A stretch of 64,000 nt of DNA from Laetmonice hystrix. Lineage: Eukaryota. Shown here piece by piece: positions 36,001 through 42,000 of the stretch. Made by a program: the position numbers. Every line of letters starts with the position of its first letter. The stretch's first letter is position 1. The stretch covers positions 12,400,001-12,464,000 of the forward strand of contig OZ249438.1 in the NCBI GenBank assembly GCA_965235115.1, given 5' to 3'.

Positions 36001-39000
36001 AAGCCTCGTGTTCGTTCAATGGTTCCGACCGCCATCATCCGCCAACAGCCAATCCAAACGTGACGTCAGCAAACATTTCACGTCACGTGTTGCGAACCTA
36101 TGACGCACAGTACAAAACGTCATCCAATGTTGAGATGGGATACCTCGCTATGGGACTGTTGTGTATTCCCTGCGCTCTGCTATACCTCGCCACGTATTGT
36201 GCTTTTCACAATAAAAGTCAGAAACGGCCCTCTACGTCCAAAATGGCGAAAGAAAAACGAGGCAAAAAGTACTTCTGCCGTGAACTCGTAATAATCGCTC
36301 TACTTTTCTGTTTCTTCACGTTGTACGTGGCGCAGGAAGTGACGTATGGCGGATACGTGTTTTTGTACGTCACGCGCGCTCTGTGCTGGAGCAACGCGCA
36401 CGGCGCCATGCTGACGTCACTGTTCTGGGCAGCCGTCGGCATTGGTCGGATTCTAAGCGTTCCCTTCTCCGTGTGGTTGGTCCCTATCCAGATGGTCATC
36501 TGTGATTTGGTCCTTGTGTTTTCTGGACTGCTGGTCCTACTTTTCTCAGCGCACCTACACGACGTGATACCATGGGTCGCGACGGCGCTGGCCGGACTTG
36601 GCATGTCAACTTTGTATCCTTCCGCCTATCTGTGGATCTCGCAGCGAGTGAAGGTAGCTGGGTTTGCCACGGGAGTGTTCCTTGTCGGTGGTTCCATGGG
36701 AGCCATGGTTGTCCCACCAGTCACGGGAACACTGCTTCAGAACTGGACGCCATTCTCGTTCGGCTATATGATGTTTGGTGTGAGCACTACAGCGACTGTG
36801 TTGTTTTTAATCGCCTTTTGTTACGAACGTAGATTTATTTCGACACAACACAGTAAAGTAAGTGAATGTTTGAAAGAGGAGGATGTTAAAAACGCAAAGA
36901 AACTTATGTCGGACAATGTTCATATGATCTAGTCATCGTCTTATCCTTATACATATAAATTGAGGCGTCTATGTGTCGAAGAGAATATGTAGGCCTATAT
37001 AAAATTTAGTACAAGTATTGTTTGTTAGTTTCCTTATTGATTTAGGCCTACATTAAATATGATTTATTTATATGGTAAGCACGTAAAACCCTTACAATAA
37101 AGGTTGTTTACTTGTCCTAACGTTATTGTTTATTGAGAGGGGGGTTATGTGTTCTCATTATGGTCCGGTGTCAATAGACTATATACTCTCTCCCGCTAGA
37201 GTGGAAACAATGCCGGTGTCATGGTTACTGGCGATAACATCTCAGTTTTGATTCACAGCCAACCGAAATCTTGTAGAGTTGAAAGTTCCCTTCACATTGT
37301 GTTCAGGGGTAGGTAACAAAGCAAGTCAGCTACAAACGCTCCTTACCCCCCCCCCCCCGCCCCCTCAGTCACTGCTCAGTGGAGCTGGGGTTACAGAAAA
37401 ATGACGTAAAGATTAAAAGTTCCTTTCGATAGCTATTAAACGTTCATTTTTTATAGCAAATAAGCTTTGGGATACATTTAGGAATAGCTTGCGCAATCCA
37501 ACGGTCAATGGCAAAATAATCTATTGAGGAATTTTTTATTGATTGAGCTGTGCTGTCTGCCCGGCCAAGTTCAGTATCGATTGGCATGCAGCGAGGAAGC
37601 CTAGCGACCGGCATTGTTTGGGTCAGGTTGTAAATTATCTCAATCTATTGCCATGCAACCTTTTCAACATAAGGCAACGACGAACCCGCAATCTATAACT
37701 GACAATACTATACCACGTTATACCATCCACATTCAAACATTATGTGTTGTCTACATCATAATGTGGGCGGTATACCACCAGCTTGATGTCAAGGAAAAAT
37801 TCCCAGCAGGAAGCAGGTAATCCAATGACGCATACAGCCACCATTCGTCAGCAATCCAATTTTCAGCGGGTTGTTGTGTAAACGGATCGATTAACTTTAT
37901 TAAAAATGTATAAGGTCCCGGACACAGCAAAAGGAACGAAAGAATCCATAATGTGTGGCAGTTTCTTCCGGGGAAATTTTTACGGAGTCAGAGTGTGGTT
38001 GGGGATTCCGGTGATGGTGAACGTTGAGGCTGGGATAGAGCAGAATTATCCATACGTTCCCGGATGTGAGGATATTCAGAATGGATTACCCCAACGGACG
38101 GGTGATTACTGCTCCATGGGACCTGGTGGTCAGTAACCTTTAGCCGTGTCTGTGTGGTTTATATAGGACTAAACACAAAGAACTCATCAAAACGACGACC
38201 AGTCATCTGTGACAATCGTTCAGCTTCATAGCTTCCGGGGACAATAATCCTCGGACCATAATTTGGTTGAATTTCGGTAACTTTTGGTTACAAGACGTAT
38301 CATCATCAATGGATCGATCCCCTGTTAAAACATTAAGGCAAGTTTGCAAGTCGCAAGATTTCATTATACAGAGGAAGCATTGAAAACTGTGGTTAAGAAC
38401 ATTGAAGACATTGTAAATATCAGACATGGCGAGGGGTGGTCAAAGTGATAACAGGGTTCGCCCGATAGACCTGAGATCAGTCGAGATTCGTCAGGACTAC
38501 GTCCTCTCCATGGCCTGTTACGACGACTACTTCCAGGCCATACGAATGGACAACGACCGACTCTTCAAGATGTCGCTAGCCGTCGGCAACACGGACGTCA
38601 TGCTCAACGGCATATTCAGCTTTACCTACGGGAGATGGGAATCATCTGTGAGGTTTTCCGTCGACCGTCCGTTCTGCCTTGCTGCAGTATGCAGTTCGCT
38701 CAACGTCTTGGAGCAAATGCTGAAATTTGGCGCCAAAGTCCGTGTGCAGACGACACACGGACATAACGCCCTCCACGCCGTCATTCAAGCCGCGGCCATT
38801 GACGAATCCCTAGAGAAAGAACTCATTGTGGTCTGTGCATTCTTGGCGAGGAATCTGGAGCCAGATGATTGGAAGGCATTGCTTGAAGCGGAAGAAAGAG
38901 GCGGGATGCGACCCTTGGAGTATGCGGCAAAGAAGGGCACGTTAGGAATCTTTCACCAACTTTTCAGAACGAGTACAAACATCATGGAGTTCAGTCGACT

Positions 39001-42000
39001 TGGGACGAACTTTCTTGCATCATATGATCTTTCCGATTACGAATCTTACAGCCAAGGGCACAGACATAACAAATCGCCGTTACTGTCTCTGGCGCGATTG
39101 GCTAAGGGGAAGGAATCCAACGTGTATGCCAGCGAGTTATTTACGGATCCAACCATAGCGATCTGGATTCGCAACAAGGTGTTATGCAATGCTCCGTGGC
39201 TTGTACTATGGTTTTTTCTACGGGTAATATATGCGTTTCTCGTTATATACAGTTGGTTTGGCGTGTACGGATTTGGAGATTCTGGTGGCGAGGATGTCCC
39301 GAGTGATGGCACGGAGGATGAGAACGTCACTGGACTCTTACCGTTAAACTTACCCGACTGTATCAGCAACTGCCACAGTTTCCCATTCACACGAGCAAGC
39401 GCTTTGAAGGCCGCGCTCGCCCTTTCGGCTATTTCCTTTCTGGTTGATTTCATCGAGTCAGCGATTGTCCTATGGAACTATTGCCGACCTCGCCAGAGGT
39501 TCGTCAGGACACCCATTGTTCTTGGTGGCCTCAGCACAGCACTTGTCTACAGAACAGGTCATTTCTGTCTAACCGTCTGCGTTCCTGTCTATTATCTTTA
39601 CCTTTCCCGAGTCAGTAGAGAAACTCGTAGTCAGTACCAAATATACTATCTCTCGGTCGTCTATGCTACATGTGCATTATTCGTGTCAATATCATTTGGA
39701 TATTTTGTGCAACTTTTTCCAGTTATCGGCCACTTGCAAATGCTTTGTGCCCGTCTTTTGGCATTGACACTTAAAATGGTGTGTGTGTTTGTGATATATT
39801 TGACTTTCTATACGTTTGCGCTGGGATCTTTACTGAGACTGTATCAGACACCAGGAGACACAGGTAACAATCCGTCCTACGCAGCGTTCAAACTGCTGCT
39901 GAACCAGTACAGTCTGGATGAGGTCACCACAAACGGCGGCCATATGCTCGTGTTTTTCCACGTTACGTTCTACTGCGTGACGACATTTCTCCTGCTGCAC
40001 TTTTCCATCGGAATCGTCGTGAACGCTGTGACGTCACTGGTTCATGTGCTGAACGTCATCACGAGTGTGGAACTACTGAACGCTGCGTGCCTGGTCGAGA
40101 CGCGCGTGAGCTGGCTCCTGGGGAAACTTTACGGACCCCTTCAGCAGCTGGTTTATACTCTCGAAGGTGGCCGCGTCTTTCTGAATGTTTTAGTTCCCGA
40201 CGCAGGTCTTCCCAAGGAATTTATGTCCTGGATGTATAAGTAATTTGCTTTCCAGATCGACCGTTAACCGCGCCATGCACACAGCCCCTTGCCCTCAAAC
40301 ATGAACGACCTGGCCGTTGCATGAGCGGCATAAATTCTATTTCAGGGTCGACAGCCCACTAAAACTAGGCTGTCCCAAGAGCTTTGCCATGTTTGCTTTT
40401 TGGGTTCACTTATTTTAGACTTTGCATCTCCATTTATCGCTGTGATTATATATTAAGCCACCTTTGAGGATGAAGGTTTAATACAGGTTAACTAGCTTGA
40501 TGAATAGTTTAACTCAAGCAGGCTTGCAGGCCAGTGCTAACGAGTGGAGTGTCTCACTGTAATGTTTAAAGTAATCATTACTGAAGCATAATGCATTTTT
40601 TTGCGACCGAGTCCAAATGATACATTGTTTCAGCAGTCACATGCAGCAGTGTGGTAAAATGAATATTGCATGACGGAGCGAGATCGACAGATACCAAGCC
40701 GTATATGCACTCGACCACGCCTCGAGCACAACAATCGTGCCATGCAAACCTCCTGACCTTGCGCTGTCATGCAATATACCAGCTTTGAAAGTTCACCGTG
40801 TATCTCCCATGGACTTGAACGAGTTCAACGCCATCCATGTGTGTATTTCAATCATCCTAGTGATCGTATGTGATAATGAACAGAACACAAATCCACCAGT
40901 TCACTGTTAGTTAAACTGTATTATATAGTGTTAAACAGTACCCAGACCCATCGACACGTGTAAGAGATTGGTATAACGATGGATGCGGTCCACAGGCACA
41001 TGTGTGCAGACGTGCTTTAGTTTACGTAAACAATATAAAAAGTAACTTGCGCGCCAGTAACATCTGTATTGGATGGTGTCATCTATACAGCAGTTCACAT
41101 TACATAAAGAGCGCGTATTATAAAGACTGAACTATAAGAGAATTTTATTTGTTATATAAGTCAAACTATGAAACTTTTCTACTGTTATGTCATTGTCTTT
41201 ATGTTATATAACGTTTCTAAGATAGCCTTTCACTCCCTGGGTTGCATCAGAAAAGAAAAGAAAATATGAAATTCATATTTTTACCATTTTTTCTCAAAAT
41301 GTTGGACCGGAGTAATAGATATGGCCTTGTTGTAATGTATTAGAAGAAAGATCTAAGTCAGGAGCTGACCTGAAGAACATCGATCGTCCCGTGAGATTGT
41401 AAAATGATAACGTCTAATATACATCAGGCGTAACGTGCAGCCTTCGCTCATTTTTAGCCATGTGCGAGCTTTCACCCTACAGGTAAACATTCGAATCGGT
41501 TTGCGGTGTTTTTCTCGTCAATATCCACAATTATCACGTGCAAGTCATCCACACACGAGGCAGATATAGAGGGAGGGTTTGGAGGGAGGGGGTGGAGTTT
41601 TACCCACGTGGGAAACATGAACACCACGACCGCCTGGCATTGGGAGGCGGTCCGAGTGCGAGCCGTTATCTACGAGGCATATTGCCGAATAATTCCCTGC
41701 TGCGATGTTGCTTTCATCTGCTGGGCGTAATAAGAAAACCATCAACGACCAGGGAGGCATCTCTCCATATTTCTTCAAGTCGTCCCAACGCTGCAATTTG
41801 GCGTGTCGCACCCCTTGCCCTGGCCTTGCAGGAGGCTGGTGCTTTCATTGGCGTGACTGCATTCTTGTCCTGAGGTCGATGGAAACCGACACTTGCATAA
41901 TACGCACTGCGCCTGCATGTGCTCCAGGATCACTTCCATGGCCTTTGGGGATCGCAAGTTCAATGCAACATGTAAATGTACATAGAGCCCAGCAGCAAGT

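What the first reader, a model, noticed from the sequence alone, without database searches (positions are those of the whole stretch)
38426..40243. Intronless, highly divergent TRPV-like channel with an altered S6 gate motif
A single-exon 605-aa ORF sits among intron-rich neighbours. It has few ankyrin repeats, six TM segments, a short pore loop and a very short C-terminus with no recognisable TRP box. Where TRPV/TRPA channels have the conserved S6 motif LLNxLIAxM, it reads LLLHFSIGIV (Asn to His). This suggests unusual gating, pH or metal sensitivity, or a non-conducting subunit. It may belong to the poorly characterised TRPVL group reported from annelids and cnidarians, or to a lineage-specific retroposed expansion of sensory receptors. 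No function is known to me.
Basis: partly seen in the sequence, partly recalled or inferred. Interest (0 to 1): 0.65.

Follow-up and report, generated by a model that had tools for sequence, protein, structure and literature searches.

The report
Divergent short TRPV-like channel gene
This is a real, intact, single-exon gene for a very divergent relative of the TRPV sensory ion channels, whose gate-forming segments have changed unusually fast, but it belongs to a known kind of channel and nothing is yet known about what it does.

Summary
The 605-codon ORF at 38426-40243 (+) is real and is the longest stop-free frame in the window. A 63%-identical, colinear relative exists, and neutral drift to that distance left 0 of 300 simulated copies stop-free.

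The protein alone reaches no Pfam cut-off, and its membrane half matches no solved structure. However, it belongs to a large family of about 600-residue proteins (408 representatives). The family profile matches TRPV6 and TRPV5 end to end (E 1e-47). The AlphaFold model (pLDDT 86.5) matches only TRPV1/3/5/6 chains in Foldseek.

The layout is four ankyrin repeats, a linker hairpin, S1-S6, a pore helix, a TRP helix without the TRP-box Trp, and a C-terminal strand.

The S6 change is confirmed. His525 sits where 130 of 134 family members have Asn, and no other member has His. The lineage is ordinary in the ankyrin, S1-S4 and TRP-helix parts. It is an outlier in S4-S5/S5 and S6.

My verdict is a new, divergent member of the TRPV/TRPVL clade with a remodelled gate. 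TRPVL membership, retroposition, expression and conduction remain untested. Interest is modest.

The parts
38426..40243 (+). Complete single-exon coding sequence, 605 aa plus stop (P0001)
   Evidence: ORF. It is colinear with the 63%-identical P0002. The ORF length is far beyond chance.
38516..38980 (+). Short ankyrin-repeat domain, residues 31-185: four helix pairs (33-40/44-53, 82-88/92-100, 115-125/127-143, 163-170/173-182)
   Evidence: Model. Sub-threshold Ank_2/Ank_5 hits. Matches to designed ankyrin proteins and the TRPV4 ankyrin domain. Family profile positions 35 onward align to TRPV6 from residue 126.
38981..39190 (+). Linker domain with beta-hairpin (187-192, 195-201) and pre-S1 helix, including the family-invariant Trp247
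   Evidence: Model. Trp247 is present in 70 of 70 and in 148 of 151 sequences.
39191..39709 (+). S1-S4 bundle: S1 256-282, a poorly modelled S1-S2 loop carrying the N-x-T site at Asn300, S2 323-353, S3 372-398, S4 403-428
   Evidence: Model. Hydropathy. Asn300 is nearly invariant in the family.
39728..39844 (+). S4-S5 linker and S5 (435-473); the most aberrant part relative to the family
   Evidence: P0001 keeps 3 of 13 family-consensus residues, while all 68 other members keep 6 or more. The changes include Q442A, M444L, D447L and F451M.
39872..39922 (+). Pore helix and filter region (483-499); Ser496 sits where the family mostly has Asp, the column that aligns with the TRPV6 filter Asp
   Evidence: Column 496 has D 75, N 33, E 11, S 9 and Q 3 among the 138 of 151 sequences with a residue there; the few remaining residues were not listed. 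Region 474-504 is only 39% identical between P0001 and P0002.
39938..40042 (+). S6 (505-539) with the altered gate motif FLLLHFSIGI at 39986-40015; His525 is codon CAC at 39998-40000
   Evidence: P0001 keeps 6 of 16 S6 consensus residues, and only 1 of 68 other members keeps as few.
40049..40153 (+). TRP helix (542-576), lacking the TRP-box Trp (Thr546) but keeping family-conserved Glu558 and Arg560
   Evidence: Model. Columns 546, 558 and 560. It aligns to the TRPV6 TRP-helix region.
40154..40240 (+). C-terminal strands (578-580, 583-591) and a short final helix (597-604)
   Evidence: Model. The region is 69% identical to P0002.

Best explanation
The ORF is a complete gene, kept by selection, for one subunit of a TRPV-type (TRPV/TRPVL clade) tetrameric cation channel. 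It belongs to a large family of short, roughly 600-residue channels with this layout: four ankyrin repeats, a linker hairpin, S1-S6 with a re-entrant pore helix, a TRP helix without the usual tryptophan, and a C-terminal strand.

Within that family the window gene and its one close relative form the longest branch. Their cytosolic parts, S1-S4 and TRP helix are ordinary. Their S4-S5 linker, S5 and S6, which couple the sensor to the gate, have been rebuilt.

I infer that the protein still assembles as a channel but opens and closes differently from its relatives. The S6 hinge Asn, which in TRPV1 is said to rotate during gating and which is intolerant to Ala or Phe, is a titratable His here. The neighbouring Leu and Ala are Ser and Gly. 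The S4-S5 Asp and S5 Phe that pack against that Leu in other TRP channels are also replaced.

Shown here: the gene, its conservation, the fold, the family, and the position and rarity of the changes. Inferred only: tetramer formation, ion conduction, and any pH or metal dependence.
For: Real and selected:
- The 608-codon frame is far beyond chance.
- P0002 is 63% identical and colinear, with 4 inserted residues.
- Random substitution of the ORF down to 63% identity gave a mean of 11.4 stops, and 0 of 300 replicates stayed stop-free.

Family:
- 408 representatives at E<=1e-3, 262 at <=1e-10 and 11 at <=1e-30. Most are 560-670 aa and align over the full length at 22-34% identity.
- 25 of 70 aligned members hit Pfam Ion_trans at E<=0.001.

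TRPV kinship:
- The family profile scores TRPV6 at 1.3e-47 (profile 35-571 against chain 126-618), TRPV5 at about 1e-42, TRPV3 at about 1e-36, TRPV4 at about 1e-31 and TRPV1 at about 2e-30. Of the 60 listed rows, 56 are TRPV chains and 4 are designed ankyrin proteins.
- A typical member, P0016, hits TRPV5/6/3 directly at 1e-15 to 1e-13, and all 60 listed rows are TRPV1/2/3/5/6.

Fold:
- The model has pLDDT 86.5 and pTM 0.86.
- All 43 listed Foldseek rows are TRPV1/3/5/6, with TM-score (query) 0.57-0.64 over about 580-620 columns.
- The protein-language-model neighbours are ankyrin-TRP clusters scoring 0.96-0.98.

Gate module:
- Column 525 has Asn in 130 of 134 sequences and His only here. Column 527 has Leu in 122 of 134, with Ser only in the pair. 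Column 529 has Ala in 126 of 134, with Gly only in the pair.
- P0001 keeps 3 of 13 consensus residues in S4-S5/S5, and 0 of 68 other members keep as few. It keeps 6 of 16 in S6, and 1 of 68 others keeps as few. It is mid-range in the ankyrin domain (34 of 52), the linker (13 of 18), S1-S4 (16 of 23) and the TRP helix and C-terminus (7 of 11).
- The hydrophobic gate positions Ile528 and Ile530 are kept.

Literature (eLife 2022, PMC9242649; section 6 read in full, other parts as passages):
- N-x-L-I-A is part of a 12-residue TRP fingerprint that is over 89% conserved.
- rTRPV1 N676A is listed as non-functional and N676F as unresponsive to heat and agonist, and gating is said to rely on rotation of N676.
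- A conserved Asp at the end of the S4-S5 linker and a Phe at the start of S5 lie close to L678.
Against: - No expression data and no functional data exist.
- The pore region is the least conserved part between the two orthologues (39% against 63% overall). In the rest of the family the pore and S6 are the best conserved parts (median ratios 1.45 and 1.47 of the overall identity, against 0.74 and 0.97 for the pair). This fits loss of conduction as well as it fits a changed gate.
- Ser496 replaces the Asp that aligns with the TRPV5/6 filter Asp.
- His525 rests on one base (CAC; an Asn codon AAC is one step away), and the orthologue has Asn. It could therefore be a recent, possibly disabling, change, a rare allele or an assembly error.
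- The comparison rests on only two sequences of this lineage. P0002 is a predicted protein, so its intactness is partly by construction.
- The tetramer was never modelled.
Confidence: 0.6

Rival explanations
1. The protein is maintained but no longer conducts ions on its own. It would act as a modulatory or silent subunit in heteromers with other family members, or it keeps only a scaffold or sensor role through its conserved cytosolic parts.
For: Divergence is concentrated in S4-S5/S5 and S6. The pore region is 39% identical between the two orthologues, against 70% in the ankyrin domain and 69% in the C-terminus. Three of the four N-x-L-I-A fingerprint residues are changed. The filter Asp column holds Ser. 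TRPV1 N676A and N676F are listed as non-functional or unresponsive (passages of PMC9242649).
Against: The hydrophobic gate residues, the pore-helix Tyr485, Phe488 and Asn493, and the S4-S5 Gly435 are kept. The pore module is modelled with pLDDT mostly 84-95. Nine other family representatives also have Ser at column 496. TRPA1 works with Gly at the Ala position and without the TRP-box Trp (Table 1 of PMC9242649). No partner gene lies in the window.
Confidence: 0.22
2. The ORF is a recently inactivated or never-expressed retrocopy. It still looks intact because too little time has passed.
For: It is a single coding exon beside multi-exon neighbours. The His525 and Met451 changes are specific to this species. 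No AATAAA or ATTAAA lies within 2.2 kb downstream.
Against: The ORF is intact and colinear with an orthologue at 63% identity. Drift to that distance gave 0 of 300 stop-free simulations. Codon-position GC is uneven (52.5, 38.9 and 56.4%). There is no poly-A tract and there are no flanking direct repeats. The orthologue appears to be a single uninterrupted ORF too, so intron absence predates the split.
Confidence: 0.06
3. His525 itself is not a fixed feature. It would be a sequencing or assembly error or a rare allele at one base, so the true gate motif reads N-F-S-I-G as in the orthologue.
For: CAC differs from the Asn codon AAC by one base. The only close relative has Asn. His is unique among 134 sequences.
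Against: Nothing in the window suggests low quality at this place. The other two S6 changes (Ser527, Gly529) are shared by both species, so the motif was already drifting.
Confidence: 0.1

Closest known systems
Vertebrate TRPV5/TRPV6 (and TRPV1-4), the solved TRPV channels
   Same: They are the best profile match over nearly the full length and the best structural match. Shared features are an ankyrin domain, a linker hairpin, S1-S6, a pore helix, a TRP helix and a C-terminal strand. The family consensus keeps N-F-L-I-A in S6 and mostly has Asp in the column that aligns with the TRPV6 filter Asp.
   Different: The window protein has four ankyrin repeats, not six, so roughly the first 125 residues of TRPV6 have no counterpart. 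It has no TRP-box Trp. Identity to TRPV structures is only 13-17%. The window protein alone is not detectable as a TRP channel by pairwise sequence search. Its S6 reads H-F-S-I-G.
TRPVL (vanilloid-like; called 'Trpw' in the catshark preprint 10.1101/2024.05.23.595469)
   Same: It is described there as six TM segments plus four ankyrin repeats, close to TRPV/TRPA (passages). The published TRPVL fingerprint also lacks the TRP-box Trp (Table 1 of PMC9242649).
   Different: The published TRPVL consensus has Trp at the rTRPV1-666 position and Phe at the 678 position. This family has Tyr or Phe (123 of 134) and Leu (122 of 134) at those positions. No named TRPVL sequence could be aligned here, so membership is open.
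TRPA1
   Same: TRPA1 has Gly at the S6 Ala position and no Trp in the TRP helix (Table 1 of PMC9242649), as this protein does.
   Different: From recall, TRPA1 has a long ankyrin array and a C-terminal coiled coil. No TRPA1 chain appears among the 60 listed rows or the 43 rows.
Coral PdTRPV5/6-like channel (PMC12503276)
   Same: It is an invertebrate TRPV5/6-like channel shown to conduct Na+ and Ca2+ (abstract and passages). It shows that distant invertebrate TRPV relatives can be tested in HEK cells.
   Different: It has 724 aa and six ankyrin repeats, with conserved LIAM and TRP-helix residues. It is not of the short four-repeat type.

Membership tests
Group-1 TRP channel (fold and fingerprint) | Six TM helices with a re-entrant pore helix between S5 and S6, followed by a TRP helix | tested here: met
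   The model has pLDDT 86.5 with helices at the expected places. All 43 listed Foldseek rows are TRPV channels.
Group-1 TRP channel (fold and fingerprint) | [quoted passage not shown] | tested here: inconclusive
   I mapped positions by spacing from the TRPV6 alignment, which is my inference. Kept: Trp247, Gly435, Tyr462, Phe488, Phe515, Ile528. Changed: Asn525 to His, Leu527 to Ser, Ala529 to Gly, and the TRP-box Trp to Thr546. The two S1 positions could not be mapped with confidence. That gives 6 of 10 mappable positions. The paper counts 7 for TRPVL and TRPS.
TRPV (vanilloid) family | Closest sequence and structure relatives are TRPV channels | tested here: met
   This is met through the family profile (TRPV6 1.3e-47), a typical member and the model. 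The window protein alone does not meet it: it has 0 PDB hits for the TM half at E<=10 and no Ion_trans hit.
TRPV (vanilloid) family | Six ankyrin repeats in the N-terminal domain | tested here: not met
   The model shows four helix pairs. The alignment to TRPV6 starts at chain residue 126.
TRPV (vanilloid) family | TRP box with conserved Trp (rTRPV1 W697) | tested here: not met
   The window protein has Thr546. The commonest residues listed for the family column are Met 35, Leu 25, Val 14, Gln 12 and Ile 10.
TRPV (vanilloid) family | Linker beta-hairpin plus a C-terminal strand after the TRP helix | tested here: inconclusive
   Strands are modelled at 187-192/195-201 and 578-580/583-591. I could not inspect coordinates to confirm that they pair.
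TRPV (vanilloid) family | Placement inside the TRPVA-D clades in a tree with named references | not testable with these tools
   No named reference sequences could be obtained. The clade scheme comes from passages of PMC9664204.
TRPVL / 'Trpw' | Six TM segments plus four ankyrin repeats | tested here: met
   Model. The description comes from passages of the catshark preprint.
TRPVL / 'Trpw' | Published TRPVL fingerprint W - N G Phi F W N F I A A | tested here: not met
   The family has Tyr or Phe, not Trp, at column 515 (123 of 134). It has Leu, not Phe, at column 527 (122 of 134; Phe in 3). It agrees only in lacking the TRP-box Trp. That TRPVL set was cnidarians and annelids only.
TRPVL / 'Trpw' | Clusters with Nematostella or Capitella TRPVL in a tree | not testable with these tools
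   No named TRPVL sequence was available. Supplements listing accessions are closed.
Processed retrogene | Intronless CDS with a poly-A remnant and target-site duplications, derived from a multi-exon parent | tested here: not met
   The CDS is a single exon. There is no poly-A tract, there are no flanking direct repeats, and no AATAAA or ATTAAA lies within 2.2 kb. A parent gene could not be sought.

The most novel reading that the evidence does not exclude
This lineage has re-engineered the coupling between the S4-S5 linker and S6 of a TRPV-type channel. The interacting Asp, Phe and Leu are all replaced, Gly is introduced into S6, and in this species a titratable His sits at the hinge position. 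The result would be a channel gated by protons or transition metals, a constitutively leaky or locked channel, or a silent subunit that tunes heteromers. That would be a natural experiment on the most conserved gating residue of TRP channels.
Probability: 0.2. Interest if true: 0.55.

Novelty: new member of a known kind. Interest (0 to 1): 0.32.

Why it matters
The S6 Asn is one of the most conserved residues in TRP channels (93.7% in the eLife fingerprint), and point mutants at it are listed as dead or unresponsive. A naturally maintained protein with His there, plus matched changes in the residues that pack against S6, could show how much the TRP gate tolerates and whether a hinge His confers pH or metal control.

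More broadly, the short four-ankyrin TRPV-like family is large (408 clusters at 50% identity). In the papers I read, only one member of the TRPVL/'Trpw' group has any expression data, and none has been recorded electrically. If the gene proves to be an ordinary channel or a silent copy, the finding is only one more lineage-specific TRP gene.

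Tried and rejected
**Searches that gave little**
- Word-indexed protein search with the protein and with the 70-sequence alignment: both returned only P0002, so no names or sources for the family were obtained.
- The two Atlas calls (15, 40) gave only leads: ankyrin-TRP clusters from Chordata, Mollusca, Arthropoda and Chlorophyta.
- Pfam on the protein alone: only sub-threshold ankyrin hits.
- PDB phmmer with the whole protein: designed ankyrin proteins and one TRPV4 ankyrin domain.
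- PDB phmmer with the TM half: nothing at E<=10.
- Rfam on the window: only one tRNA-like hit.

**Checks with negative results**
- Paralogues or extra exons in the window: none.
- Retroposition hallmarks: none.
- The antisense ORF 39046-39453 (135 aa) overlaps the CDS. I treat it as a by-product, and it was not searched.

**Steps not run**
- dN/dS: not possible, because only the protein of P0002 is held.
- I did not try to name the organism. Nothing suggests a human contig.

**Literature searches**
- 'TRPVL', 'TRPV + intronless + invertebrate', 'TRPV6-like / TRPV5-like / gene family expansion' and 'TRPVL + Capitella + Nematostella'. None listed a paper whose title or abstract start concerns an S6 His variant or intronless short TRPV-like genes; only the papers named in this report were opened.
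- Himmel and Cox 2020 was not held.
- Supplements are closed. Those that might settle TRPVL membership are the accession lists of PMC9242649, Table S2 and Fig. S7 of PMC12980990, and Supplementary Figure 25 of the catshark preprint.

Full report
**1. The observation**

The window holds an ATG-to-stop ORF at 38426-40243 on the + strand, 605 aa. An in-frame stop lies three codons before the ATG, so the stop-to-stop frame is 38417-40243. It is the longest stop-free frame in the window.

- Shuffles of the surrounding 12 kb gave a mean longest run of 138 codons and never more than 236 in 200 shuffles.
- The composition-based chance of 608 stop-free codons is about 3e-13.
- GC differs by codon position: 52.5, 38.9 and 56.4%.

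Residues 521-530 read FLLLHFSIGI, and His525 is codon CAC at 39998-40000.

**2. Is it a whole gene in one exon?**

Two protein searches found one close relative, P0002 (645 aa, 63% identity, 100% of the query covered).

- It aligns from its Met37 (MAKGG...) to Met1 of the window protein (MARGG...) and runs to the shared C-terminal ...SW(M/V)YK.
- Only four residues are inserted, all in loops.
- The 36 extra N-terminal residues of P0002 match nothing in the window. They look like an upstream extension of an ORF call, which is my inference.
- More distant relatives are mostly 560-670 aa and align over nearly the full length.

No upstream coding exon is therefore needed. A UTR intron cannot be excluded.

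The neighbours do have introns.
- A TXNDC16-like gene has separate domain-bearing ORFs at 14398-14715, 19457-19735 and 22443-22679, with a LINE reverse transcriptase on the other strand between them.
- An MFS transporter gene has exons at about 35102-35400 and 35826-36932.

I searched these exons one by one and made no joined model. Nothing suggests the contig is human.

**3. Is it under selection?**

I substituted the ORF at random (transition bias 2) until the protein was 63% identical to the original. This took on average 409 substitutions and gave a mean of 11.4 stop codons and a minimum of 4. None of 300 replicates stayed open.

There are two caveats. P0002 is a predicted protein, so its own openness is partly by construction. 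And dN/dS could not be computed, because only its protein is held.

**4. What it is**

Alone, the protein is barely recognisable.
- Pfam gives only sub-threshold Ank_2 and Ank_5 hits (E 0.005-0.007) and no Ion_trans hit.
- phmmer against PDB gives mostly designed ankyrin-repeat proteins (or entries containing one) plus one TRPV4 ankyrin domain at E 0.0097.
- The membrane half (residues 240-605) matches no PDB chain at E<=10.

The exhaustive representative search shows a large family: 408 clusters at E<=1e-3, 262 at <=1e-10 and 11 at <=1e-30. I aligned 70 of the 151 sequences held, chosen from those with long matches (A1).

- 25 of these 70 hit Pfam Ion_trans at E<=0.001, and 8 hit PKD_channel.
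- The A1 profile matches TRPV6 at 1.3e-47 over profile positions 35-571 against chain residues 126-618.
- It matches TRPV5 at about 1e-42, TRPV3 at about 1e-36, TRPV4 at about 1e-31 and TRPV1 at about 2e-30.
- Of the 60 rows listed, 56 are TRPV chains and 4 are designed ankyrin proteins.
- A typical member, P0016, finds TRPV5/6/3 by itself at 1e-15 to 1e-13, and all 60 listed rows are TRPV1/2/3/5/6.

The AlphaFold2 model built with A1 has mean pLDDT 86.5 and pTM 0.86. All 43 rows listed by Foldseek against PDB are TRPV1, 3, 5 or 6. They have TM-score 0.57-0.64 over about 580-620 columns at 13-17% identity. The protein-language-model neighbours are ankyrin-TRP clusters scoring 0.96-0.98.

**5. 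Anatomy**

| Element | Residues |
|---|---|
| Four ankyrin-like helix pairs | 33-53, 82-100, 115-143, 163-182 |
| Linker hairpin | 187-201 |
| Pre-S1, with family-invariant Trp247 | around 247 |
| S1 | 256-282 |
| S1-S2 loop, low confidence, with a near-invariant N-x-T site at Asn300 | 283-322 |
| S2 | 323-353 |
| S3 | 372-398 |
| S4 | 403-428 |
| S4-S5 linker and S5 | 435-473 |
| Pore helix | 483-491 |
| S6 | 505-539 |
| TRP helix | 542-576 |
| C-terminal strands | 578-591 |
| Final short helix | 597-604 |

'No TRP box' needs correcting: the helix is there and keeps the family's Glu558 and Arg560. The Trp position is Thr546, and in the family the commonest residues there are Met, Leu, Val, Gln or Ile.

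**6. The S6 motif in context**

All 151 sequences were aligned, and 17 of them lack this region.

| Column | Family | Window protein and P0002 |
|---|---|---|
| 525 | Asn 130 of 134; Ala, Val, Trp once each | His in P0001 only; Asn in P0002 |
| 527 | Leu 122 of 134 | Ser in both, and only in them |
| 528 | Ile 115, Val 17 | kept |
| 529 | Ala 126 of 134 | Gly in both, and only in them |

The family consensus N-F-L-I-A is the canonical TRP motif. The lineage changed it in two steps: Ser and Gly before the two species split, and His afterwards.

The eLife fingerprint paper (PMC9242649; section 6 read in full, other parts as passages) gives the following.
- N, L, I and A are 93.7, 95.3, 89.7 and 95.3% conserved across TRP channels.
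- rTRPV1 N676A is listed as non-functional and N676F as unresponsive to heat and agonist, and gating is said to rely on rotation of N676.
- An Asp at the end of the S4-S5 linker and a Phe at the start of S5 lie close to L678.

In the window protein the residues I map to these are Leu447 (family: Asp in 35 of 70), Met451 (family: Phe in 64 of 70) and Ser527. The whole contact cluster has therefore changed. The mapping is my inference.

**7. Where the lineage is odd**

I built a FastTree tree from the 132 of 151 sequences of at least 500 aa, using 562 columns. P0001 and P0002 sit on the longest branch of the tree (1.69 substitutions per site). They are nested in a 33-tip clade with support 1.0, and in closer groupings with weak support of 0.55-0.72.

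The table counts residues kept at columns where at least half of the other 68 aligned members agree.

| Region | P0001 keeps | Others (min / median) | Others with as few or fewer |
|---|---|---|---|
| Ankyrin domain | 34 of 52 | median 38 | 14 of 68 |
| Linker | 13 of 18 | median 14 | 21 of 68 |
| S1-S4 | 16 of 23 | median 16 | 39 of 68 |
| TRP helix and C-terminus | 7 of 11 | median 7 | 41 of 68 |
| S4-S5/S5 | 3 of 13 | min 6 | 0 of 68 |
| Pore region | 4 of 9 | min 1, median 6 | 11 of 68 |
| S6 | 6 of 16 | median 13 | 1 of 68 |

Between P0001 and P0002, identity also varies by region.
- Pore region 474-504: 39%, the least conserved part.
- S4-S5/S5: 56%.
- Ankyrin domain: 70%.
- C-terminus: 69%.

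In the rest of the family the pore and S6 are the best conserved parts. Their median identity is 1.45 and 1.47 times the overall identity, against 0.74 and 0.97 for the pair. That ratio is compressed at high identity, so only the direction should be trusted.

Column 496 aligns with the TRPV6 filter Asp. It is Ser in P0001 and Glu in P0002. In the family it is Asp 75, Asn 33, Glu 11 and Ser 9.

**8. Mechanism**

Shown here: a conserved gene with a TRPV-type protomer fold, and a gate and coupling module that departs from its family.

Inferred: it assembles as a tetramer and conducts cations with altered gating, with His525 possibly making opening depend on pH or metals. The hydrophobic gate residues Ile528 and Ile530, the pore-helix residues Tyr485, Phe488 and Asn493, and Gly435 are kept, which favours a working pore.

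The fast-evolving pore and the lost fingerprint residues keep the silent-subunit rival alive. A dead retrocopy is unlikely. His525 rests on one base, so it needs read-level confirmation.

**9. Comparison with what is known**

By sequence and structure the nearest solved proteins are TRPV5/6. The family differs from TRPV channels in having four rather than six ankyrin repeats and no TRP-box Trp.

TRPVL is described as a sister of TRPV found in cnidarians and an annelid (passages of PMC8749608 and PMC12980990). It has since been reported in choanoflagellates and other holozoans (preprint passages). It has also been reported in vertebrates as 'Trpw', with six TM segments and four ankyrin repeats, and with trpw1 expressed in olfactory neurons (preprint passages). 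That architecture fits.

However, the published TRPVL fingerprint (W - N G Phi F W N F I A A) disagrees with this family at two S6 positions. The TRPVA-D scheme (passages of PMC9664204) and the abalone study's 'unclassified TRPs near TRPV and TRPVL' show that such divergent TRPV-like genes are a known, unsettled area. A preprint reports frequent lineage-specific TRP expansions (passages).

I therefore file the gene in the TRPV/TRPVL clade without deciding between the two.

**10. Novelty and score**

This is a new, uncharacterised and very divergent member of a known kind of channel. The unique hinge His and the remodelled S4-S5/S6 coupling are worth a bench test but would not greatly surprise a TRP specialist. 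Interest is 0.32.

Noticed in passing
window 14398-22679 (+), with 15047-16690 (-): A TXNDC16-like multi-exon gene. Separate ORFs hit TXNDC16_N (7.6e-5), TXNDC16_2nd (6.3e-6) and Thioredoxin (1.4e-7). A 548-codon LINE-type reverse-transcriptase ORF (RVT_1, 6.5e-34) lies on the opposite strand between the first two.
   Followed up: partly
window 35102-36932 (+): A major-facilitator transporter gene with at least two exons: MFS_1 profile positions 8-101 and 152-347 fall in separate ORFs. It ends about 1.5 kb upstream of the channel gene on the same strand.
   Followed up: partly
window 27906-34067 and 43847-53563: Dense minisatellite arrays. Units are 77 nt x9, 70 nt x29, 34 nt x20, 28 nt x35, 22 nt x25 and x13, 59 nt x9 and x27, 62 nt x5.5, and a GGTGTG-rich array. 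They produce long spurious ORFs in several frames.
   Followed up: no
window 17671-17742 (-): A tRNA-like sequence just above the Rfam gathering score (31.8 against 29 bits), close to the LINE. It may be a tRNA gene or a tRNA-derived repeat.
   Followed up: no
window 63044-64000 (+): An ORF open at the window end (319 codons), with a poly-Glu run and His/Gln/Thr/Pro-rich low-complexity sequence. It has no Pfam match. It may be a coding exon of a further gene.
   Followed up: no
window 39046-39453 (-): A 135-codon ATG ORF antisense to the channel CDS. I take it as a by-product of the sense-strand composition, and it was not searched.
   Followed up: no
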